Assembly: GCA_964016885.1 (NCBI GenBank)
Contig: OZ024741.1
Coordinates: forward strand, 53,630,001-53,694,000
Direction: 5' to 3'
DNA: 64,000 nucleotides
Origin: Eledone cirrhosa
Lineage: Eukaryota
The notes beneath the pieces are model-generated. The model saw only the letters and a program-made list of their open reading frames with translations. It was not told the DNA's origin and searched no databases. Positions 33,305 to 47,166 of the stretch are shown piece after piece. Made by a program: the position numbers and the translations under genes. How positions within the stretch are numbered: the first letter of the stretch is position 1; every line of letters starts with the position of its first letter.

Positions 33305-36300
33305 AGAGACCACCACCACACCAAACAACCCCTTCAACACCCCCATGGAAATTGTGCAGCCTGGTCCCCAGGAGACAAAGAGGTGAGTGATTTCTTTTCT
33401 TCTTCAGCACCAACATGGCCAATATGAGAGTTGGATGTGTGAATGTACGCGGCCTGGGGATGCCCGGGAAACAGGGCAAACTCTTAAACGACCTCAGGTC
33501 GCACAGTATGGATGTAGTAGCAATTTGCGAGTCCAGGATCCACAGCGAGCCGGAACTGGCCCCCATCTTTGACGACTTTGAGATCTACGCATATCTCTGA
33601 CAGCCGAATGGTGGGGGTGGGGTTGCCGTTTTGCTGCGGAAACACCTGGACCTCGTAACTTAGACGGTACATCTGGACCGGAGGGTCTACTGGTGGTCCT
33701 AGACGCTGACGGTAGTGAAAGTGGAGCCTTCAGGCTGGTGGCCGCATATGGCTCATCCGGGACACCGCGACCAGACTTCTTCAAACGTCTAGAGACTTTT
33801 CTGTGAACGCCCCGTTCCCTGCTGTTAGTGGGGGATTGGAATGAAATTCTAGATGCACGTTGAGACTATGTGGGAGCATGTCCCAATAGAGGGGGGTGTA
33901 AAAGCCTCAAACAGTTAATCGGCCGATTTGACCTGGCCGATAGATATCGACTAGATTTTTCGACTGTGCCACTGTGGTCGTGGAGTAATCGTAGCGGATC
34001 ATCTAGATCGTACATAGATAGGGTTCTAGTTAGAAATAAGGATAGGGACATGTTAAGAAGCACTTGACGGGGCCATTGTCAACAACAGATTTTGGTACTC
34101 TCTCAAGAGGGCAGTTAGATTCGATTCGATAGGTTTTAGTAAAGAATTAGTGTTAGATAGAAAAGGAACTGGTAGATAAAGTAGAAGAGGCACTTAGGAG
34201 TGGCAACGTAGCCAGCGTGCTAGCGACGAGAACGGCCTTGGACCAGTACTTCGACGCAAAACATGAAGGCTGCGTTGTCAGAAACAAAATACGTGCTCTG
34301 GGAAACGAGGGAGCCAAAGCTGTTAGCTGGGCCCGAGTGACGGAGGCGAAAAGTGGCAACAAGTCCACGATTCGGTATTTGAAGGACCAAGATGGACGCG
34401 TGATACGTGAGCCGAAGCAAATGTGCGCGGCCTTTCAGCGGCACTTTGCTCAACTGTTCTGGCAGAGCGGCGCGCCGAGAGGAGCTATGGATTTCGATTC
34501 ATACCTCGACGGCCTACCGCGAATCTCGGACAGGTAGACGAAGTTCTGCAAAAGGCCGGTTTCGGCCGCTGAGATAGTGGACGCGCTGAGCTAATGCGGC
34601 AAAGGTAAATATCCAGGTCTCGCCGGTCTACCCTACGAATTTTACGTAGCAATGCCGGACTTGTTCTCCTGTCTCCTGCAACTGGCAGCAGAACGGGAGA
34701 ATTCCCAGTTCTGTGACCAAGGGTGTAATCACGTTAGTCAGGAAGGACGAGAACAAGGGGGATGACATAGGCAACTTCCGGCCCATAACTCTGCTCAACA
34801 CAGAGTTACAGATTTTGACCAAGGTGTTGGCAAAGAGGCTGGTGCCTGTCGTCGAAAACCGAGTGCGAGAAGTGCAGACATGCGCAATCCCGACCATGTC
34901 CATACACGACAACCTCCACCTCATGCGATACATCATAGAGAGGGTAGGGTGTAAACCCGGCTTCAGTGGGGCCCTGATCAACTTGGATCAGTCTAAGGCT
35001 CTCGATAGGGTTGACCATCGTTACCTGGAAGCGGTGCTCGAGCCGGCAGGCTTCGGTCCCGTGTTTAGGAGCTGGATTGCTGCAATGCACAACAGCAACA
35101 TCTGCTCACAGGTCAAGGTGAACGGCTACCTTTCGGAGCCGTTCCATATCACGCGATCCATCTGACAGGGATGCCCTCTCTCCTCCCTTCTGTACGTACT
35201 GACTCTCGAGCCACTACTGCGGAAGTTGGAGCTATTGCAGGGCATCCCTTTGGAACAGGGACTGCGAAAAGCGGCGTCGGACTACGCCGAGGACGTGACA
35301 GTGATTGTGTTGAGCACCTCGCAAATCGGGGAGCTAGGCACATTATTGGAGGAATACGAAAGGTTCACAGGAGCGAAGCTGAACCGGGACAAATCCGTCG
35401 GTTTGCAACTCGGAACGTGGAGAGGCAGACCGATGCCTTCCGATGACGTCGTCGGACGCTGGACGGAAGGACCGGTAAAGCTGCTCGGGTCTGGTTTGGT
35501 CTTGACCTCCAGGTGGAGAAGAACTGGAACGAGGTGACGGTCAAGGTGTTTGCGCTCACCCAGAAGTGGGCCGAGTGCAAACTATCCTTGAAAGGTCGAG
35601 CGGAGGTGGCGAACTCTTTTATAGCGTCCGTCATCTACTACCTTTTGACCGTTGTGTCTTGTCCAGCCAAAACGCTCACCAAAATGGAGCGCGCACTCTT
35701 CCAATTCCTTTGGAAGAAACGGGCTCTTTGGTGAGAAGATCCATCTACTGCCGACACCCTTCAAACGGAGGGCTGCGGATGCCGTGGCTGACGATGCGCA
35801 AACACGCGCCTGCCCACGATTCGTATCGCTGACCGAGCTGCAGTTCTGGGTCAAGCAAAGACCGAGGAAAATGGGTGACTGGCACATCGAATGTGCTCAG
35901 GCACTCACAGTCCTCTGGCAAACGGACCCGGCGATCAGTGGAGACTCCACTTCGACATTCTATAGAGGGTTGGTCCGCAGCAAGTTCGACGACACGCTCG
36001 GAGAATCTCAAGGCGTAGAGGAGAAAGAACTGTCCAGTCTGTTCGGTAGGACCTTCCTCCCGGGACCAATGGACAACTTCCAAAAGTCCCTGGCCTGGCA
36101 GTGCTACCGAGGAGCTCTACCAGTTCGAGACAAGCTCTACAAACACGGGCACTCGGGTAGGTACCCTTCGAAAAAGATCTGTCCGAGATGCGTGCGCGAC
36201 GAGGAAACCGTCGCACACGCATTCATACACTGCCCGGGCGTTACCGACCTGTCGGGCTATGTAGAACGACTATTGTCGCGGATGGGACCAATCCAGTTGA

Positions 36301-36828
36301 CCACCGAGTCCATTGTCATGATCAAACCGCCATCCTCCTTCAAAAACGAGGGAGAAGCGGTTTTCCTATGTGTTATGGCTATGGTGAAAGAGGTTATATG
36401 GTGGACGAGGTTAAAAGGGCTGAGGTCAGACACCTTTCTCTCCGGCGAGCAACTGATTCGTTTTTTCAAATATCATTTTGGAAGAAGAATCAGGATGGAG
36501 AGAGAGGTGCTGTACCCCAGCAAATTTTATTAAAGGTGGGTGAATGTGGCAAAGATGGCCCGAGTGGTTGGGCCTTCTCTCTATATAAGCCTGTAGGTTG
36601 AGGAAAAAGAGGAAGAGAGGAAGGGAGTACTCACTCTTGGTGCTCCTGGAGATGAGGGTTATACATTTTTTCGAGGTGTGTACAACCCCTGTGTAACACC
36701 TCCCCCCTATTGGGGATTTCAATTGTTATTTGCTATTGTATTAATAGTTTTATTTTCACATACCTGTATGTAAAGTCCCCATTTGTATTTGTCCCCTTCT
36801 TTTGTGCCCTTGTGGCTAATAAAGAAAT

Positions 36829-36830
<2 letters not shown>
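33305..36830 (+). pseudogene. 5'-truncated, decayed Tx1/L1-type LINE (end of ORF1 + ORF2) between (TATC)n tracts
   Basis: MANMRVGCVNVRGL, NFRPITLLN, DYAED, CPRC..ETVAHAFIHC with many stops and deletions. Highly similar to 38920-42630. AATAAA then (TATC)n. Confidence 0.92.
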
Positions 36831-36862
<32 letters not shown>

Positions 36863-37087
36863 CTCTATCAGTCGTGTGTCACTTCGCGGAGAAGTTTCCG
36901 TTAATTTATGTAAGGAAAAAACGTGAGTTTTTAGTTCAATTTTATATCATTGTGTAACTTGACCACCCGTCTGGACCTTCAGGTGGTGGGTCAACTCATT
37001 TTCGCCCCTTCAGGGGCGGAATATCCATTTAAAAAATGTTTCTCCATCGAATCTTGGAAAAAAATATTGTAAAACTTTGATTACGTT

Positions 37088-39004
37088 ATGAACGCTGCGT
37101 CCAACGATAATGGTGGTGGAGAGGCGGTAAGACTACAAAGCTCGCAGTCAACAACGTCTTCTTCACTAGATACTATAGAGATGGAAAGACAAAATGAAAA
37201 TAAAAAAACGAATTCACATCCAAACAACACAAATGACACCAAACAGCTCAATGACAACAAAAATAACAGCAAAACCAATAATGATGATAAAAGCAACAAT
37301 GATAACAACAACAAAGAAAAAAATAAAGACAACGCCAATAACACCAGCATCAAAGACAACAACAACACCAAGGAAAATACGGATGATACCAACATCGGTG
37401 ACAACAAGAATAACAACAAGAACAACAACAATAATGACAACACCACCAATACGGATTCCACAAAGAAACCAAAAATCTCCTTTGCGGAGAAAGTTCAAAA
37501 GAAAGAACAATTGATATATCTCGACATAACAAATGCTGAACACCTTTTAAAGGACGCTAAGAGATATGTCACCTTCGAAAAAAATGGTGCTTTCAGCATC
37601 AATTCTCCGGTAGAAATTCGCAAGGAAACTGCTCTCAAAACGATAGTTTTTAGGACAGTTTCCAATTCTACCCGAAAACCAGTCCAATTGTCACAGAAAG
37701 ATATTGAACTGGTTTTCAAAGATTCAATGAATGATATTGCATTCATTCAAAGAAGCAAACTTTTTGGGAGTATTTCGGTACTGATGAAGGATCAATTGAC
37801 GGCCCAAAATTACTCTGTGTCGCCAATTGTATCCAACCTGTACACCTTTTTCCCTACATACATGGGAAAAAGGACACAAAAGATCAGAATCACAAGTGTC
37901 ACACCAAAGGTGAACATATGGTGGATACTGTGCGGCTTCATCAATTTTGATGAAGACAGAATACTGTCAGTAGGCAAGTCCCCCAGAGATGTATTCAATG
38001 GGACTAGCATTGAAGTTCTGGTGCAAATGAGCCCAGAGCGAATATCTATGATCCCACAGCGTGTACTCCTGGACGGACTCACCTACATAAACCTTTCGGT
38101 TGAGGGTAGGCGGCCTTCATGTTACCATTGCTTTAGCAGGGGTCACCTGAGGGCTTCCTGTCCTAAACTAATGAACCAAAAAAAGGCTCTTCTGCCGACA
38201 CCCATCAAAACAACACAACCACCAACACCACCACAACAACAACAACACCAACACACAAAAATAACCACAACAAACATAGTCCCACCCAACCCCACTCCAC
38301 CTAAAACCACTGCAAAATCACATACAGACACAACAGCTCCCCAATACATACCCCTCCCCAATCACACAGACGATACAACAGATGAGGCTATCTCGCCATC
38401 ACCCAGTGAAGACGAGGGAGAACCCCATCGCTCGAAAAGAAAGAAAAGACATCACAAAAGCAAAAAACCAGCAAACACTACCACAAACATACAACCACCA
38501 ACACAAACAACAAAAATATCACAAACAAAACCCCCACCTCCTGAAAACAAAATACCTACAACAAAACGAAAGCACACACAAGAACTACAGACAAAAACAA
38601 ACACAACACAAGAAAATTACACTTACACTTACATAAACACTGAAAACAAAACACTAATGGAGACCATCACGAACGACCCTTCGGTTTTCACCGAAGGGAA
38701 AACTTTCGCCCACTCTATAAAAAATAGCAAAAAACTGAACCTAAAACTGATTAGGGTTCCTATACAAACTTATAGGTCCCTAAAAGAAACATTTGAGAAG
38801 GATGTGGGGAATTCCTGCGTGAAACCACTCAACCGCGTCCTTCGCAAATGTCTCCCCACCCCAGACACCCCCATCCCACCAGACCCCACCCCACCAAACA
38901 TCTGCGTCCCCACCCCGCCGGAAACCACCACCCATCCAGACAACCCCTCCAACACCCCCATGGAAATCGTGCGGCCTGGTCCCCAGGAGGCGAAGGGTGA
39001 GTGA
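37088..39004 (+). CDS. LINE ORF1 nucleic-acid-binding protein (Asn-rich N-terminus, CCHC zinc knuckle, Pro/Thr-rich tail)
   Basis: 638-aa ORF; SFAEKV; CYHCFSRGHLRASC knuckle; directly upstream of ORF2. Confidence 0.88.
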   Translation: MNAASNDNGGGEAVRLQSSQSTTSSSLDTIEMERQNENKKTNSHPNNTNDTKQLNDNKNNSKTNNDDKSNNDNNNKEKNKDNANNTSIKDNNNTKENTDDTNIGDNKNNNKNNNNNDNTTNTDSTKKPKISFAEKVQKKEQLIYLDITNAEHLLKDAKRYVTFEKNGAFSINSPVEIRKETALKTIVFRTVSNSTRKPVQLSQKDIELVFKDSMNDIAFIQRSKLFGSISVLMKDQLTAQNYSVSPIVSNLYTFFPTYMGKRTQKIRITSVTPKVNIWWILCGFINFDEDRILSVGKSPRDVFNGTSIEVLVQMSPERISMIPQRVLLDGLTYINLSVEGRRPSCYHCFSRGHLRASCPKLMNQKKALLPTPIKTTQPPTPPQQQQHQHTKITTTNIVPPNPTPPKTTAKSHTDTTAPQYIPLPNHTDDTTDEAISPSPSEDEGEPHRSKRKKRHHKSKKPANTTTNIQPPTQTTKISQTKPPPPENKIPTTKRKHTQELQTKTNTTQENYTYTYINTENKTLMETITNDPSVFTEGKTFAHSIKNSKKLNLKLIRVPIQTYRSLKETFEKDVGNSCVKPLNRVLRKCLPTPDTPIPPDPTPPNICVPTPPETTTHPDNPSNTPMEIVRPGPQEAKGE

Positions 39005-39037
39005 TCTCTTTTCCTCTTTTAACTTTTCAGCACCAAC

Positions 39038-42000
39038 ATGGCCAATATAAGAGTTGGATGTGTGAACGTACGCGGCCTGGGGATGCCCTGGAAACAGGGC
39101 AAACTCTTAAACGACCTCAGGTCGCACAGTTTGGATGTGGTAGCCATTTGCGAGTCCAGGATCCACGGCGACCGACAGCTGGCCCCCATCTTCGATGACT
39201 TTGAGATCTACGCATATCTCTGTCAACCGGGTGGTGGGGGCGGAGTTGCCGTTTTGCTGCGGAAACACCTGGGCCTCGTAACACAGACGGTACATCTGGA
39301 CCCGGAGGGTCGACTGGTGGTCCTAGACGTTGACGGTAATGAAGGTGGAGCGTTCAGGCTGGTGGCCGCATATGCCCCATCCGGGACACCGCGGCCGGAC
39401 TTCTTCAAACGTCTAGAGACTTTTCTGGGAACGTCCCGCTCCTTGCTTTTAGTGGGGGACTGGAATGGAATCCTAGATGCACGTTGGGACTATGTGGGAG
39501 CATGTCCCGATAAAGGGGGGTGTAACAGCCTCAAACAGTTAATCGACCGATTTGACCTGGCCGATAGATATCGACTAGATTTTCCGACTGCGCCACTGTG
39601 GACGTGGAGTAATCGTAGCGGAACATCTAGATCGTACCTAGATAGGGTTCTAGTTAGAAATAAGGATAGGGACATGTTAAGCTGTCCACAAATGTTCATG
39701 GTTGCCTATTCAGATCACAAACTAGTGACCTGCATGGCCAACCTTGATAGAACCCATAGACAAGGACCCGGCTACTGGAAGCTGAACTTGTCGTTACCGA
39801 CAAGCAAAGCCTACAGTAGACGGATTAGCACTTTAGTTAAACAGCACTTGACAGGGGCCATTGTCAACAACAGATGGTGGTACTCTCTCAAGAGGGCAGT
39901 TAGATTAGACTCGATAGCTTTTAGTAAATAATTAGCGTTAGATAGAAATAGAACCGAGAAGGAACTGGTAGATAAAGTAGAAGAGGCAATTAGAAGTGGC
40001 AACGTAGCCAGCGTGCTAGCAACGAGAACGGCCTTGGACCAGTTCTTCGACGCAAAGCCCGAGTGACGGAGGCAAAAAGTGGCAACAAGTCCACGATTCG
40101 GTCTTTGAAGGACCAAAACGGACGCGTGATACGTGAGCCGAAGCAGATGTGTGCGGCTTTTCAGCGGCACCTTGCTCGGCTGTTCGGGGGGAGCGGCACG
40201 CCGGGAGAGGCTATGGATTTCGGTCCATACCTCGACGGCCTACCGCGACTCTCGGACAGCGAGGCGAAGTTCTGCGAAAAGCCGATTTCAGCCACTGAGA
40301 TAGGGGACGCGCTGAGCCAATGCGGCAAACGCAAATCTCCAGGTCTCGACGGTCTACCCTACGAATTTTACGTAGCAATGCCGGACTTATTCTCCGGTCT
40401 CCTGGAAGCGGTCTACTGGAGAATTCCCAGTTCTGTAACCGGGGGCGTGGTCACACTAATCAGGAAGGACGAGAATAAGGGGGATGACATAGGCAACTTC
40501 CGGCCCATAACTCTGCTAAACACAGAGTTACAGATTTTGGCCAAGGTGTTGGCAAAGAGGCTGGCGCTTGTCGTCGAGAACCTGGTGGGAGAAGCGCAGA
40601 CATGCGCAATCCCAACCAGGTCCATACACGACAACCTCCACCTCATGCGATACATCATAGAGAGGGTAGGGTGTAAACCCGGCTTCGGTGGGGCCCTGAT
40701 CAACTTGGATCAGTCTAAGGCTTTCGATAGGGTTGACCATCGTTACCTGGATGCAGTGCTCGAGGCGGCAGGCTTCGGACCCGTGTTCAGGGGCTGGATT
40801 GCTGCAATGCACAACAGCAACATCTGCTCACAGGTCAAGGTGAACGGCTACCTCTCGGAGCCGTTCCATATTACGCGATCCATTCGACAGGGATGCCCTC
40901 TCTCCTTACCTTCTGTACGTACTGACTCTCGAGCCACTACTGCAGGAGCTGGAGCTATTGCAGGGCATCCCTCTGGAACCGGGACTGCGGAAAGCGGCGT
41001 CGGCCTACGCCGACGACGTGACAGTAGTGGTGTCGAGCGCCTCGCAAATCGAGGAAGTCGGCACCTTACTGAAGGAATACGAAAGTCTCACAGGAGCGAA
41101 GCTGAACCGGGACAAGTCCATCGGTTTGCAACTCGGATCGTGGAGAGGCAGACCGATGCCTTCCGATGGCGTCGTCGGACGCTGGACGGAAGGACCGGTA
41201 AAGCTGCTCGGTGTCTGGTTTGGTCCGGACCTCCAGGTGGAGAAGAACTGGAACGAAGTGACGGCCAAGGTGTTTGCACTCACCCAGAAGTGGGCCGAGT
41301 GCAAACTATCCTTGAAAGGTCGAGCGGAGGTGGCGAACACTTTTATAGCGTCCACCATCTACTACCGCTTGACCGTCGTGCCTTGTCCAGCCAAAACGCT
41401 CGCCAAAATGGGGCGCGCGCTCTTCCGATTCCTTTGGAAGAGGCGGGCTCCTTTGGTGAGAAGATCCATCTGCTGCCAACACCCTTCTAACGGAGGGCTG
41501 TGGATGCCGTGGTTGACGATGCGCAAACACGCGCTCAGGCTGCGGCATCTCTACGTATTCCTCACCGGACAACCGGTGTGGGCCCCGTTCGTGAGGCGAG
41601 CCTTCCCACGACTCGTCTCGCTGACCGAGCTGCAGTCCTGGGTCAAGCAAAGACCGAGGAAAATGGGCGACTGGCACATCGAATGTGCTCAGGCGCTCAC
41701 AGCCCTCTGGCAGGCGAACCCGGAGATCAGTGGAGACTCCACTTCGTCATTCTATAGAGGGTTGGTCCGCAGCAAGTGCGACGACGCGCTTGGTGAAACT
41801 CTAGGCGTAGAGGAAGATGAACTGGCCAGTCTGTTCGGTAGGACCTTCCGCCCGGGACCGATGGACAACTTCCAAAAGTCCCTGGCCTGGCAGTGCTACC
41901 GAGGAGCTCTACCAGTTCGAGACAAGCTCTACAGACATGGGCGCCCGGGCAGGGACCCTGCAAAAAAGATCTGTCCGAGGTGCGTGCGAGACGAAGAAAC

Positions 42001-42388
42001 CGTCGCGCACGCATTCATACACTGCCTGGGCGTCACTGACCTGTGGGGCTATGTAGAACGACTATTGTCGCGGGTGGGACCAATCCAGTTGACCACCGAG
42101 TCAATTGTCATGATCAAACCGCCACCCTCCTTCAAAAACGAAGGAGAAGCGGTTTTCCTTTGTGTGATAGCTATGGCGAAAGAGGTTGTATGGTGGACAA
42201 GGTTGAAAGGGCTGAGGTCAGACACCTTTCTCTGCGGCCAACAACTGATTCTTTTTTTCAAATACCACTTTGGAAGAAGAATCAGGATGGGGAGAGAGGT
42301 GCTGTACCCCAGCAAGTTTTATGAAAGATGGGTGAAAGTGGCGAGAATGGCCCGAGTGAATGGGCCTTCTCTCTATATCAGCCTGTAG
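39038..42388 (+). pseudogene. LINE ORF2 (APE endonuclease-RT-CCHC), broken into three frames
   Basis: NVRGL, GDWN, SDH; KSPGLDG, RPITLLN, LDQSKAFDRVDH, RQGCPLS, AYADD; CPRC..HAFIHC. Stop at 39931, ~70-bp deletion near 40057, frameshift near 40905. Confidence 0.92.
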
Positions 42389-42644
42389 GTTGAGGAAAAG
42401 GAGGAGGAGAGGAAAGGAGTACAAGCTCTTCGTACTCCTGGAGATGAGGGTTGCACATTTTTTTTCGGGGGTATGTGTTACCCATATAAACTGTCTCCCT
42501 CTATTGGGGAAAATCGACTAACTTTTAAATTCCATCTGTGATAACATTTTACACGTTTTTATTGTATGTAAACTTCCTCCTTTGTATTTGTCCCCTTCTT
42601 TTGTGCCCCTGTGGCTAATAAAGAAATATATCTATCTATCTATA

Positions 42645-42757
42645 TTTGTTTTATATTAAGTTATTTGCTTTCTTTACTCGCCTTTTTGTGTAAACTCCCC
42701 CTCCCCCCCTTGTATTTGTCCCCTTATTTTGCGGCCTCGTGGCAATAAATAGAAATA
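42645..42757 (+). mobile_element. Extremely 5'-truncated third Tx1 3' end
   Basis: TGTAAACT..TTGTATTTGTCCCCTT..TTTG..GTGGCAATAAA recapitulates the 3' ends at 36770-36825 and 42567-42625. Confidence 0.75.
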
Positions 42758-43073
42758 TATATATCTAACTATCAATTGAAACAAAATGAAAACGAAATTT
42801 CATTTCTCACTCTTAGTATGGCACTTACTTAAATGTAAGTATGCATGTATACGTACATACATATATGTATACAGACGTACAGTAGCATGCACATATATAT
42901 ATATATATACATATATATATACATATGCATACAGGTACACATACATATATGCACGTATCAGTTTAGCGGCGCTAACGTCGCTTTGTTCGTTTGTAAACAA
43001 ACTGAACAGCCTGAATTTATGCCATACGGTGTTAAGGCAACCACGTCACCTTTTGGTTCAACACTGACACAGG

Positions 43074-43118
43074 AACGATGTACTAGTTTCAAGCTTGTTA
43101 GCTATCATCAGCACCGTT
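43074..43118 (-). ncRNA. Minimal type I hammerhead ribozyme (first of 7 minus-strand copies: 43074, 43540, 44006, 44472, 44938, 45404, 45870)
   Basis: AACGGTG CTGATGA T AGCT-AACA-AGCT T GAAA CTAG TA CATCGTT. Confidence 0.88.
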
Positions 43119-46100
43119 TACCCATCTGCCAGATAGTTGAACGTTCGAAAGTATATACTTTCCTTATGAAAATTAACGGCTGAGCAGCCTAATTTGCATA
43201 TTGAGTGAGTTAAATCGGTCAGGCATACCGAAAACGATAAATTGAAACAAAATGAAAACGAAATTTCATTTCTCACTCTTAGTATGGCACTTACTTAAAT
43301 GTAAGTATGCATGTATACGTACATACATATATGTATACAGACGTACAGTAGCATGCACATATATATATATATATACATATATATATACATATGCATACAG
43401 GTACACATACATATATGCACGTATCAGTTTAGCGGCGCTAACGTCGCTTTGTTCGTTTGTAAACAAACTGAACAGCCTGAATTTATGCCATACGGTGTTA
43501 AGGCAACCACGTCACCTTTTGGTTCAACACTGACACAGGAACGATGTACTAGTTTCAAGCTTGTTAGCTATCATCAGCACCGTTTACCCATCTGCCAGAT
43601 AGTTGAACGTTCGAAAGTATATACTTTCCTTATGAAAATTAACGGCTGAGCAGCCTAATTTGCATATTGAGTGAGTTAAATCGGTCAGGCATACCGAAAA
43701 CGATAAATTGAAACAAAATGAAAACGAAATTTCATTTCTCACTCTTAGTATGGCACTTACTTAAATGTAAGTATGCATGTATACGTACATACATATATGT
43801 ATACAGACGTACAGTAGCATGCACATATATATATATATATACATATATATATACATATGCATACAGGTACACATACATATATGCACGTATCAGTTTAGCG
43901 GCGCTAACGTCGCTTTGTTCGTTTGTAAACAAACTGAACAGCCTGAATTTATGCCATACGGTGTTAAGGCAACCACGTCACCTTTTGGTTCAACACTGAC
44001 ACAGGAACGATGTACTAGTTTCAAGCTTGTTAGCTATCATCAGCACCGTTTACCCATCTGCCAGATAGTTGAACGTTCGAAAGTATATACTTTCCTTATG
44101 AAAATTAACGGCTGAGCAGCCTAATTTGCATATTGAGTGAGTTAAATCGGTCAGGCATACCGAAAACGATAAATTGAAACAAAATGAAAACGAAATTTCA
44201 TTTCTCACTCTTAGTATGGCACTTACTTAAATGTAAGTATGCATGTATACGTACATACATATATGTATACAGACGTAGAGTAGCATGCACATATATATAT
44301 ATATATACATATATATATACATATGCATACAGGTACACATACATATATGCACGTATCAGTTTAGCGGCGCTAACGTCGCTTTGTTCGTTTGTAAACAAAC
44401 TGAACAGCCTGAATTTATGCCATACGGTGTTAAGGCAACCACGTCACCTTTTGGTTCAACACTGACACAGGAACGATGTACTAGTTTCAAGCTTGTTAGC
44501 TATCATCAGCACCGTTTACCCATCTGCCAGATAGTTGAACGTTCGAAAGTATATACTTTCCTTATGAAAATTAACGGCTGAGCAGCCTAATTTGCATATT
44601 GAGTGAGTTAAATCGGTCAGGCATACCGAAAACGATAAATTGAAACAAAATGAAAACGAAATTTCATTTCTCACTCTTAGTATGGCACTTACTTAAATGT
44701 AAGTATGCATGTATACGTACATACATATATGTATACAGACGTACAGTAGCATGCACATATATATATATATATACATATATATATACATATGCATACAGGT
44801 ACACATACATATATGCACGTATCAGTTTAGCGGCGCTAACGTCGCTTTGTTCGTTTGTAAACAAACTGAACAGCCTGAATTTATGCCATACGGTGTTAAG
44901 GCAACCACGTCACCTTTTGGTTCAACACTGACACAGGAACGATGTACTAGTTTCAAGCTTGTTAGCTATCATCAGCACCGTTTACCCATCTGCCAGATAG
45001 TTGAACGTTCGAAAGTATATACTTTCCTTATGAAAATTAACGGCTGAGCAGCCTAATTTGCATATTGAGTGAGTTAAATCGGTCAGGCATACCGAAAACG
45101 ATAAATTGAAACAAAATGAAAACGAAATTTCATTTCTCACTCTTAGTATGGCACTTACTTAAATGTAAGTATGCATGTATACGTACATACATATATGTAT
45201 ACAGACGTACAGTAGCATGCACATATATATATATATATACATATATATATACATATGCATACAGGTACACATACATATATGCACGTATCAGTTTAGCGGC
45301 GCTAACGTCGCTTTGTTCGTTTGTAAACAAACTGAACAGCCTGAATTTATGCCATACGGTGTTAAGGCAACCACGTCACCTTTTGGTTCAACACTGACAC
45401 AGGAACGATGTACTAGTTTCAAGCTTGTTAGCTATCATCAGCACCGTTTACCCATCTGCCAGATAGTTGAACGTTCGAAAGTATATACTTTCCTTATGAA
45501 AATTAACGGCTGAGCAGCCTAATTTGCATATTGAGTGAGTTAAATCGGTCAGGCATACCGAAAACGATAAATTGAAACAAAATGAAAACGAAATTTCATT
45601 TCTCACTCTTAGTATGGCACTTACTTAAATGTAAGTATGCATGTATACGTACATACATATATGTATACAGACGTACAGTAGCATGCACATATATATATAT
45701 ATATACATATATATATACATATGCATACAGGTACACATACATATATGCACGTATCAGTTTAGCGGCGCTAACGTCGCTTTGTTCGTTTGTAAACAAACTG
45801 AACAGCCTGAATTTATGCCATACGGTGTTAAGGCAACCACGTCACCTTCTGGTTCAACACTGACACAGGAACGATGTACTAGTTTCAAGCTTGTTAGCTA
45901 TCATCAGCACCGTTTACCCATCTGCCAGATAGTTGAACGTTCGAAAGTATATACTTTCCTTATGAAAATTAACGGCTGAGCAGCCTAATTTGCATATTGA
46001 GTGAGTTAAATCGGTCAGGCATACCGAAAACGATAAATTGAAACAAAATGAAAACGAAATTTCATTTCTCACTCTTAGTATGGCACTTACTTAAATGTAA

Positions 46101-46383
46101 GTATGCATGTATACGTACATACATATATGTATACAGACGTACAGTAGCATGCACATATATATATATATATACATATATATATACATATGCATACAGGTAC
46201 ACATACATATATGCACGTATCAGTTTAGCGGCGCTAACGTCGCTTTGTTCGTTTGTAAACAAACTGAACAGCCTGAATTTATGCCATACGGTGTTAAGGC
46301 AACCACGTCACTCAATATGCAGCCGTTAATTTTCATAAGGAAAGTATATACTTTCGAACGTTCAACTATCTGGCAGATGGGTA

Positions 46384-46428
46384 AACGGTGCTGATGATAG
46401 CTAACAAGCTTGAAACTAGTACATCGTT
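46384..46428 (+). ncRNA. Minimal type I hammerhead ribozyme (inverted arm)
   Basis: 7-bp stem I, CUGAUGA, 4-bp stem II, GAAA, palindromic ACUAGU stem III. Predicted cleavage after GUA (46421). Confidence 0.88.
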
Positions 46429-46768
46429 CCTGTGTCAGTGTTGAACCAAAAGGTGACGTGGTTGCCTTAACACCGTATGGCATAAATTCAGGCTGTTCAG
46501 TTTGTTTACAAACGAACAAAGCGACGTTAGCGCCGCTAAACTGATACGTGCATATATGTATGTGTACCTGTATGCATATGTATATATATATGTATATATA
46601 TATATATATGTGCATGCTACTGTACGTCTGTATACATATATGTATGTACGTATACATGCATACTTACATTTAAGTAAGTGCCATACTAAGAGTGAGAAAT
46701 GAAATTTCGTTTTCATTTTGTTTCAATTTATCGTTTTCGGTATGCCTGACCGATTTAACTCACTCAAT

Positions 46769-46816
46769 ATGCAAATTAGGCTGCTCAGCCGTTAATTTTC
46801 ATAAGGAAAGTATATA
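46769..46816 (+). promoter_or_regulatory. Putative snRNA-type promoter module (octamer, PSE-like, TATA) present in each full 466-bp unit
   Basis: ATGCAAAT 46769-46776; TCAGCCGTTAATTTTCATAAGG 46785-46806; TATATA 46811-46816, just upstream of the HHR at 46850. Confidence 0.35.
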
Positions 46817-46849
46817 CTTTCGAACGTTCAACTATCTGGCAGATGGGTA

Positions 46850-46894
46850 AACGGTGCTGATGATAGCTAACAAGCTTGAAACTAGTACATCGTT
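46850..46894 (+). ncRNA. Minimal type I hammerhead ribozyme (inverted arm, second copy)
   Basis: Identical to 46384-46428. Confidence 0.88.
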
Positions 46895-47166
46895 CCTGTG
46901 TCAGTGTTGAACCAAAAGGTGACGTGGTTGCCTTAACACCGTATGGCATAAATTCAGGCTGTTCAGTTTGTTTACAAACGAACAAAGCGACGTTAGCGCC
47001 GCTAAACTGATACGTGCATATATGTATGTGTACCTGTATGCATATGTATATATATATGTATATATATATATATATGTGCATGCTACTGTACGTCTGTATA
47101 CATATATGTATGTACGTATACATGCATACTTACATTTATCTAACTATCTATTTATATATATCTATC

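What the first reader, a model, noticed from the sequence alone, without database searches (positions are those of the whole stretch)
42762..47148. Whole 4.4-kb array, including its inversion, is bracketed by a 12-bp target-site duplication
Seen: TATCTAACTATC lies immediately left (42762-42773) and right (47137-47148). The two arms diverge, with HHR-sense 3' ends facing outward. The junction uses TCAC microhomology (46308-46311) followed by a 14-nt deletion (AAATTAGGCTGCTC). Inference: a single target-primed, twin-priming-like insertion of a long multimeric cDNA rather than in situ satellite expansion, which fits the very low unit divergence.
Basis: partly seen in the sequence, partly recalled or inferred. 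Interest (0 to 1): 0.78.

Follow-up and report, generated by a model that had tools for sequence, protein, structure and literature searches.

The report
Ribozyme array inserted whole, Penelope-style
A 4.4-kb block of nine near-identical hammerhead-ribozyme repeats, folded head-to-head and flanked by a 12-base duplication, has the same insertion anatomy as this genome's Penelope-like retrotransposons, so it was likely copied in one step from a single, probably circular, RNA, which bears on how ribozyme satellites are born.

Summary
Observation confirmed: exact 12-bp duplication, head-to-head inversion, TCAC overlap, 14-nt deletion. The 466-bp unit carries a minimal type I hammerhead; its 33-nt core occurs 10,394 times in the genome: a non-LTR retrozyme family. 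The anatomy is a family rule, not a one-off: 32 of 53 positionally sampled loci are inverted the same way, and in 25 of 25 with both ends readable one arm ends at unit position ~1 and the other at ~57, into (TA)n. That is the Penelope-like-element (PLE) 'tail at one end' signature; an autonomous Neptune-type PLE family here does the same (5 of 5 inverted copies). L1-type twin priming fits poorly (fixed, not random, second priming site). A base variant found in all 9 units of both arms has no donor array in the assembly, favouring repeated copying of one monomer, likely a circle. Not shown: empty allele, long-read proof, cleavage, circular RNA, partner enzyme. Known kind of element; the insertion-level evidence for PLE mobilisation and for arrays born long was not found in my paper searches, nor in earlier scan notes.

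The parts
42762..42773 (.). Left copy of the 12-bp target-site duplication
42774..46311 (-). Left arm: 7.6 units of 466 bp, hammerhead sense on the minus strand, outer (3') end at unit position 1 ('tail+')
42774..42829 (-). 56-nt 'tail': present at this outer end, absent at the other outer end; equivalent to the PLE tail between two reverse-transcription start sites (inferred)
   Evidence: PMC11167929
43074..43122 (-). First of 7 left-arm hammerhead copies (others every 466 bp up to 45918)
43055..43055 (+). Unit position 282 = G, array-private variant present in all 9 units that cover it, both arms
46308..46311 (.). Inversion junction, 4-nt overlap TCAC
46308..46320 (+). 12-nt patch (unit 435-424) followed by a 14-nt deletion (unit 423-410) with 2-nt CA ambiguity
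46308..47138 (+). Right arm: 1.8 units, hammerhead sense on the plus strand, outer (3') end at unit position 57 ('tail-')
46380..46428 (+). Minimal type I hammerhead: stem I, CUGAUGA core, stem II, GAAA, 2-bp helix III in palindromic ACUAGU; predicted cut after 46421 (second copy 46846-46894)
47137..47148 (.). Right copy of the 12-bp duplication; first 2 nt shared with the element end
42644..42773 (+). Target context: 130-bp 3' remnant of an older L1/Tx1-type LINE whose TA/TATC tail is the insertion site
36870..42643 (+). Neighbouring full-length L1/Tx1-type LINE (ORF1 37073-39004; APE-RT ORF2 in three frames, 39023-42388); a neighbour, not part of the insertion

Best explanation
The array is a young insertion of a hammerhead-bearing non-LTR retrozyme, likely made in one event by the reverse transcriptase and GIY-YIG nuclease of a Penelope-like element, probably copying one circular 466-nt RNA round and round from both ends of the cut. 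Steps: (1) shown in sequence: target is a TA/TATC microsatellite and 12 bp are duplicated; inferred: two nicks 12 nt apart. (2) shown: the two outer ends are the two fixed family positions 56 nt apart, one each; inferred: each nicked strand primed cDNA on the same RNA, one at each of two start sites. (3) shown: all units of both arms share one private haplotype; inferred: repeated, strand-displacing passes over a single monomer circle gave 7.6 and 1.8 units. (4) shown: 4-nt overlap plus a small deletion at the centre; inferred: the two cDNA 3' ends were joined by microhomology and repaired. The partner is likely a (TA)n-targeting Neptune-type PLE, not identified by sequence.
For: Family size 10,394 exact core copies, control 0. 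Positional sample (53 stretches covering the first 100 listed hits, C1 2.5-69.6 Mb): 32 of 53 show the head-to-head inversion; 25 of those have both ends readable and 25 of 25 are one tail+/one tail-; 7 have one end lost in the internal TA tract or cut by another insertion. 58 of 61 true ends run into (TA)4 within 6 nt, 3 into (TA)3, none into (TATC)2 (8 further motif rows were internal unit continuations). Informative TSDs: 4 of 40 loci versus 32 of 3,120 mismatched pairs; 13 of 40 versus 8.4% at the lower threshold. Autonomous RT + GIY-YIG family (L106, 938-aa ORF, CxxxxCxxC linker) has two fixed ends about 64 nt apart, TA flanks, and 5 of 5 inverted copies with both ends in view are asymmetric. 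PLE literature describes the adjacent inverted 5'-truncated copy, a tail often at one end only, 8-10-bp TSDs and microsatellite bias (PMC3846280, PMC8557442, passages), and in vitro cleavage and extension of both strands with two internal RT start sites that define the tail (PMC11167929, main text). Arms share a template: own arms closer than the median other locus in 35 of 37. 282G: 21 genomic matches versus 12,902 for 282T; 8 are in this array, the other 13 sit as single units (one pair) in other copies, and none of the 12 such loci inspected is a young-type donor. Older arrays mostly carry unit-private changes (L156, L157, L035, L181); a near-identical young array spans about 8.8 kb (L187/L193/L195). 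In L140 and L171 neither arm contains the other, so simple fold-back cannot make them.
Against: No empty allele and no read bridging the central junction were seen. No circular RNA, expression or cleavage shown; Rfam gives only a sub-threshold hammerhead match (HH9, 18.5 bits versus 52, E 0.063) and stem II opens with a U-U pair. No sequence link to any of the 50 PLE-containing stretches inspected; tail similarity is at chance level (81 of 1,000 shuffles), and the tail (56 nt) is longer than the published 30-40 nt. L037 repeats the same derived changes in several units, which points to local duplication or a multimeric template there, and L157 shares six changes across its junction. Two symmetric exceptions (L036 tail+/tail+ with arms 13% apart; a tail-/tail- copy 1.7 kb away) lie in one AT-rich, rearranged cluster. 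At this locus alone the short arm is contained in the long arm, so fold-back is excluded only by other loci. 36 of 40 loci give no strongly informative TSD because the target is pure (TA)n or has since slipped.
Confidence: 0.7

Rival explanations
1. Same PLE-driven single insertion, but the template was a linear, uncleaved multimeric transcript of a homogeneous donor array rather than a circle.
For: Unprocessed RNA was the dominant substrate for the anole PLE in vitro (PMC11167929); insertion ends do not coincide with the predicted ribozyme cut (251 and 307 nt away); L037 shows repeated variants.
Against: No 282G donor array in the assembly; the donor would have to be in the other haplotype, lost, or collapsed.
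Confidence: 0.13
2. A short two-armed insertion came first and the left arm then expanded in place by slippage or unequal exchange.
For: A TSD dates the ends, not the unit count; local amplification is the model discussed in the 2026 preprint; L037 has shared derived changes.
Against: Only 2 substitutions in 4.4 kb, each in a single unit; the longest array seen is among the youngest; older arrays mostly show private, star-like changes.
Confidence: 0.09
3. L1/Tx1-type twin priming by the neighbouring LINE family, which targets (TATC)n.
For: The site is the tail of a Tx1-type remnant directly behind a full-length copy; 12-bp TSD and junction microhomology also fit L1 (PMC2912911 passages); 1 of 24 other LINE 3' ends inspected is followed by a related retrozyme end (L062).
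Against: 0 of 53 sampled family loci adjoin such a LINE tail and no end runs into (TATC)2; second priming site fixed, not random; no poly(A); the 3' end of the left TSD copy does not match the RNA at the priming site (C versus A).
Confidence: 0.03
4. One primed cDNA folded back on itself (self-priming) and made the inverted arm as a DNA copy of the first.
For: Proposed for rotifer Penelope palindromic junctions (PMC3846280); L141 has a 16-nt palindrome at its junction; here the short arm lies within the long one.
Against: In L140 and L171 each arm holds 23-92 nt that the other lacks; it does not explain why the second end falls on the other fixed site; the unit-7 change at 45849 is not in the right arm (uninformative if it arose later).
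Confidence: 0.03
5. The inversion or the unit number is an assembly artefact.
For: No bridging read was seen; near-identical units invite miscounting.
Against: Junctions differ at each locus and carry microhomology (13 of 31 with 2 nt or more; 16% expected for blunt joins); short-read contigs of one sample show seven other strand-switch joints of the same polarity at depth 8-34, one of them in all three runs; autonomous PLEs show the same form.
Confidence: 0.02

Closest known systems
Metazoan non-LTR retrozymes (Cervera and de la Pena 2020, PMC7229834; Li et al. 2026 preprint 10.64898/2026.07.22.740005)
   Same: Non-coding tandem repeat, type I hammerhead in every unit, low GC, thousands of dispersed copies, TSD larger than 4 bp, PLEs in the same genome.
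   Different: Unit 466 nt (above the 170-400 nt first reported, inside the 51-972 bp range of the preprint). In the passages I read neither paper describes head-to-head inversions, two fixed ends or (TA)n targets for retrozymes; RNA forms were not tested here.
EN+ Penelope-like element insertions (Penelope/Poseidon, Neptune, Naiad; PMC3846280, PMC8557442, PMC11167929)
   Same: Inverted 5'-truncated copy joined head-to-head, tail at one end only, short TSD, microsatellite targets, hammerhead in the repeat.
   Different: No ORF; arms are multimers of up to about 15 units; tail 56 nt (64 nt in the local autonomous family) rather than 30-40 nt; no detectable homology to a local pLTR among those inspected.
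L1 twin priming (PMC2912911)
   Same: Two cDNAs primed from both target ends, RNA 3' directions outward, microhomology at the inversion, TSD of 10-17 bp.
   Different: L1 uses poly(A) plus a random internal site found by target microhomology and copies non-overlapping parts of the RNA; here both sites are fixed, 56 nt apart, and the arms overlap in template.

Membership tests
Non-LTR retrozyme | Tandem non-coding units each with a type I hammerhead | tested here: met
   9 motif copies in the array; core intact; a sister family keeps stems I and II by compensatory changes. Rfam only sub-threshold.
Non-LTR retrozyme | Many dispersed copies, no LTR/PBS/PPT, TSD over 4 bp | tested here: met
   10,394 core copies; 12-bp TSD; flank test. 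PBS/PPT judged by eye only.
Non-LTR retrozyme | Expressed as linear and circular monomer RNA | tested here: inconclusive
   Only contigs were available; a 470-nt self-closing contig in run X7 (kind not on record) fits a circle or a tandem array alike.
Non-LTR retrozyme | Self-cleavage in vitro | not testable with these tools
   Fold of the monomer forms stems I and II; activity unknown.
PLE-type insertion | Inverted 5'-truncated copy joined head-to-head | tested here: met
   32 of 53 positional loci; no tail-to-tail junction, only separate neighbouring insertions.
PLE-type insertion | Optional tail at one end, two fixed 3' ends | tested here: met
   25 of 25 positional loci; 13 of 15 top-hit loci.
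PLE-type insertion | AT-rich or (TA)n target | tested here: met
   58 of 61 ends into (TA)4.
PLE-derived element | Homology to the pLTR of an autonomous PLE | tested here: inconclusive
   None found in 50 stretches around GIY-YIG hits (30 loci plus 20 longer fetches; 150 of 10,595 candidates scored); retrozyme copies there were separate insertions.
Autonomous PLE | RT plus GIY-YIG ORF | tested here: not met
   Unit has no such ORF; it is non-autonomous.
L1/Tx1 twin-priming product | Poly(A) or LINE tail at one end and random internal second priming site | tested here: not met
   Both ends fixed; no poly(A); 0 of 53 next to the LINE tail.

The most novel reading that the evidence does not exclude
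Hammerhead satellites are born full length: a PLE dimer grips one circular retrozyme RNA, primes at two fixed sites 56 nt apart from the two strands of a (TA)n cut, and both reverse transcriptases roll round the circle, writing two multimeric arms (up to about 15 units) that are then joined head-to-head. The strict one-tail rule would be the genomic footprint of that asymmetric dimer, explain the long-unexplained PLE tail and inverted repeats, and be the first insertion-level evidence of rolling-circle retrotransposition of a circular RNA in an animal.
Probability: 0.45. Interest if true: 0.8.

Novelty: new member of a known kind. Interest (0 to 1): 0.57.

Why it matters
Two open points meet here. 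Retrozyme papers propose, from co-occurrence and homology, that PLEs move these RNAs and that circles serve as templates for tandem cDNA, while the recent preprint leans to local amplification and calls the mechanism unresolved. PLE papers call the origin of tails and inverted repeats unexplained. A family with thousands of insertions, many very young, gives countable footprints for both: fixed dual ends, shared private variants across arms, and array length at birth. It names two exact RNA positions and a candidate local enzyme family, so the model can be tested in the published in vitro PLE assay.

Tried and rejected
Rfam at gathering threshold: nothing in the window; E-value scan mostly hit the AT hairpin with miRNA models, treated as chance. 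Partner search: Pfam GIY-YIG over the genome, 50 stretches inspected, no pLTR homologous to the unit; retrozyme copies beside PLE ORFs (L100, L116, L117) are separate insertions, the one read in full (L117) sharing a (TA)n tract. Tail-to-tail similarity between retrozyme and PLE not significant. Empty allele: none among the listed rows of four contig sets on the left flank (217 loose ends not shown), which proves nothing; no relatives of this genome are held. Junction bridging: not among listed records. Arm lengths show no bias (tail+ longer in 14 of 23, p 0.34) and no correlation. Inner ends do not cluster at the ribozyme cut (2 of 31). Twelve of 31 junction overlaps came out negative, partly because other subfamilies differ from the focal unit used as reference. 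In one search three loci were mis-anchored (L136, L038 variant tails; L187 cut by the fetch edge) and count as misses. Earlier scan notes: one unrelated hit, two blank look-ups. Paper searches for prior description of inverted, tailed retrozyme insertions; subscription journals are not covered and no supplements were read (the life-cycle figure S9 of PMC7229834 and the preprint's supplements may bear on novelty).

Full report
Observation. The 12-mer stands at 42762-42773 and 47137-47148 and cannot be extended. Between them lie 7.6 copies of a 466-bp unit (42774-46311) with two single-unit substitutions, then the reverse complement of the unit from position 435 down, with a 14-nt deletion after the first 12 nt, ending at position 57 (46308-47138); TCAC is shared by both arms. 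The word is a one-mismatch variant of (TATC)n, which is common here, so I tested placement rather than rarity: among 3,120 mismatched flank pairs only 1 reached this information class.

The unit. On the strand whose 3' ends face outward each unit has a minimal type I hammerhead: a 7-bp stem I, CUGAUGA, a short stem II, GAAA, and a 2-bp helix III inside the palindrome ACUAGU. Rfam finds nothing at threshold and a weak HH9 match at that place. A sister family in the same genome keeps stems I and II through changes on both sides, which supports the fold. Stem II opens with U-U in this family; activity is untested. Hammerheads with a short helix III were reported to cleave as dimers (PMC7229834, passage). 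The 33-nt core occurs 10,394 times in the 3.0-Gb assembly. This is a non-LTR retrozyme family as defined in PMC7229834 (passages and Discussion read) and in the 2026 preprint (parts 1-3 of 5 read).

The anatomy is a family rule. I took 53 stretches covering the first 100 listed core hits, a positional sample limited to copies with an intact core. 32 show the same head-to-head inversion; none shows a tail-to-tail junction, though some older copies lie next to newer ones. In 25 both outer ends are readable, and all 25 have one arm ending at unit position 1-6 (or the matching end of a variant tail) and the other at 57-61; the other 7 lost one end. Among top-scoring loci 13 of 15 follow the rule; the two exceptions lie together in one AT-rich rearranged cluster. 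58 of 61 true ends run into (TA)4. Inner ends are scattered; 13 of 31 junctions overlap by 2 nt or more against 16% for blunt joins, 12 gave negative values. Informative duplications appear in 4 of 40 loci against 1.0% of mismatched pairs, several of 11-13 bp; most targets are pure (TA)n and unreadable. The focal locus stands out only because its target is imperfect.

Which enzyme. PLE insertions are described with an inverted 5'-truncated copy, a 30-40-bp tail often at one end only, short TSDs and microsatellite bias (PMC3846280 and PMC8557442, passages). The anole PLE protein cuts and extends both strands of AT-rich DNA and starts reverse transcription at two internal sites whose spacing is the tail, without target homology, and is predicted to be a dimer (PMC11167929, main text). 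This genome holds many GIY-YIG copies. One abundant family has a 938-aa RT + GIY-YIG frame with a CxxxxCxxC linker, the Neptune mark named; it has two fixed 3' ends about 64 nt apart, TA flanks, a hammerhead-like motif with a palindromic helix III, and 5 of 5 inverted copies with both ends in view carry the tail at one end only. The retrozyme thus inserts like a PLE. No sequence link to a particular PLE was found. The neighbouring L1/Tx1-type LINE (clade name from recall, not from a tree) is a poor candidate: its tails are (TATC)n, 0 of 53 sampled loci adjoin one, and L1 twin priming uses an internal site chosen by target microhomology (PMC2912911, passages).

Which template. The arms of a locus are closer to each other than to the median other locus in 35 of 37 cases (4 of 41 dropped for too little overlap). 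At this locus unit position 282 is G in all 9 covering units, whereas the other young arrays examined have T or a one-base gap there. Genome-wide the G form matches 21 times, the T form 12,902 times; 8 matches are here and the rest are single units, or one pair, in other copies, none of the 12 inspected loci being a young-type donor. Other arrays likewise have their own fixed variants in both arms (L168, L181). One monomer read repeatedly explains this best. Older arrays mostly show unit-private changes, and a near-identical young array is about 8.8 kb long, so length seems set at birth. Against uniformity: L037 repeats derived changes among units and L157 shares six across its junction. Fold-back copying cannot make L140 or L171, where each arm has sequence the other lacks, although it could formally make the focal locus.

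Model and status. Shown: TSD, inversion, overlap, fixed asymmetric ends, TA targets, shared private haplotype, same anatomy in an autonomous PLE. Inferred: staggered nicks by GIY-YIG, priming of both strands on one RNA, a circular template, microhomology joining. Not obtained: empty allele, bridging reads, RNA evidence, the partner. Short-read contigs do show other junctions of the same polarity, so the class is unlikely to be an assembly artefact.

Novelty. The element is a new member of a known kind and each anatomical feature is known from PLEs. Seven paper searches found no description of this anatomy for retrozymes or of array-private variants as evidence of rolling-circle copying; coverage excludes subscription journals and supplements. 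Earlier scan notes held nothing relevant. Interest 0.57: an ordinary kind of element whose footprints make two open mechanistic questions countable and testable.

Noticed in passing
window 33305-36869, 36870-42643, 42644-42773: Three L1/Tx1-type LINE copies nested head to tail, each joined through a (TATC)n tract; the family (1,067 first-look candidates) appears to target and regenerate (TATC)n.
   Followed up: partly
L134:229-3106 (= L036): A head-to-head insertion whose arms come from two subfamilies 13% apart, both ending with the tail; if real, two different RNAs primed one site. It lies in an AT-rich rearranged cluster where one junction occurs twice.
   Followed up: partly
L050:4900-6400; also L031, L034, L116: A second, homologous retrozyme family (unit about 450 bp) with a canonical G-C stem II, compensatory stem I and an equivalent end into (TA)n.
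   Followed up: partly
L187:2967 to L195:754: Very young array of about 8.8 kb (4 + about 15 units, 99-100% alike), tail- left and tail+ right.
   Followed up: yes
L037:3535-9012: Derived changes recur with a 3-4-unit period, suggesting local duplication or a multimeric template.
   Followed up: no
L157:1805 and 4212: A forward unit and the first inverted unit share six derived changes: possible conversion between arms.
   Followed up: no
L106:2773-8815: Apparently full-length Neptune-type PLE, 938-aa frame between 1.06-kb direct repeats; its hammerhead-like core reads UUGAAAA instead of CUGANGA in all copies listed.
   Followed up: partly
L120:3260-6525; L111:1989-5737: Autonomous PLE copies forming near-perfect 3.3-3.8-kb palindromes with little or no spacer.
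   Followed up: no
L141:3246-3261: Inversion junction centred on the unit's own 16-nt palindrome.
   Followed up: no
window 47000-47135 (unit positions about 57-185): Long AT-rich hairpin next to the tail- end that scores against miRNA-precursor models; may be a binding or small-RNA feature or only low complexity.
   Followed up: no
run X7, laid on window 42450-43200: A single 470-nt contig that closes on itself over the unit in a run with no cover of the flanking LINE; circle or tandem array cannot be told apart.
   Followed up: no
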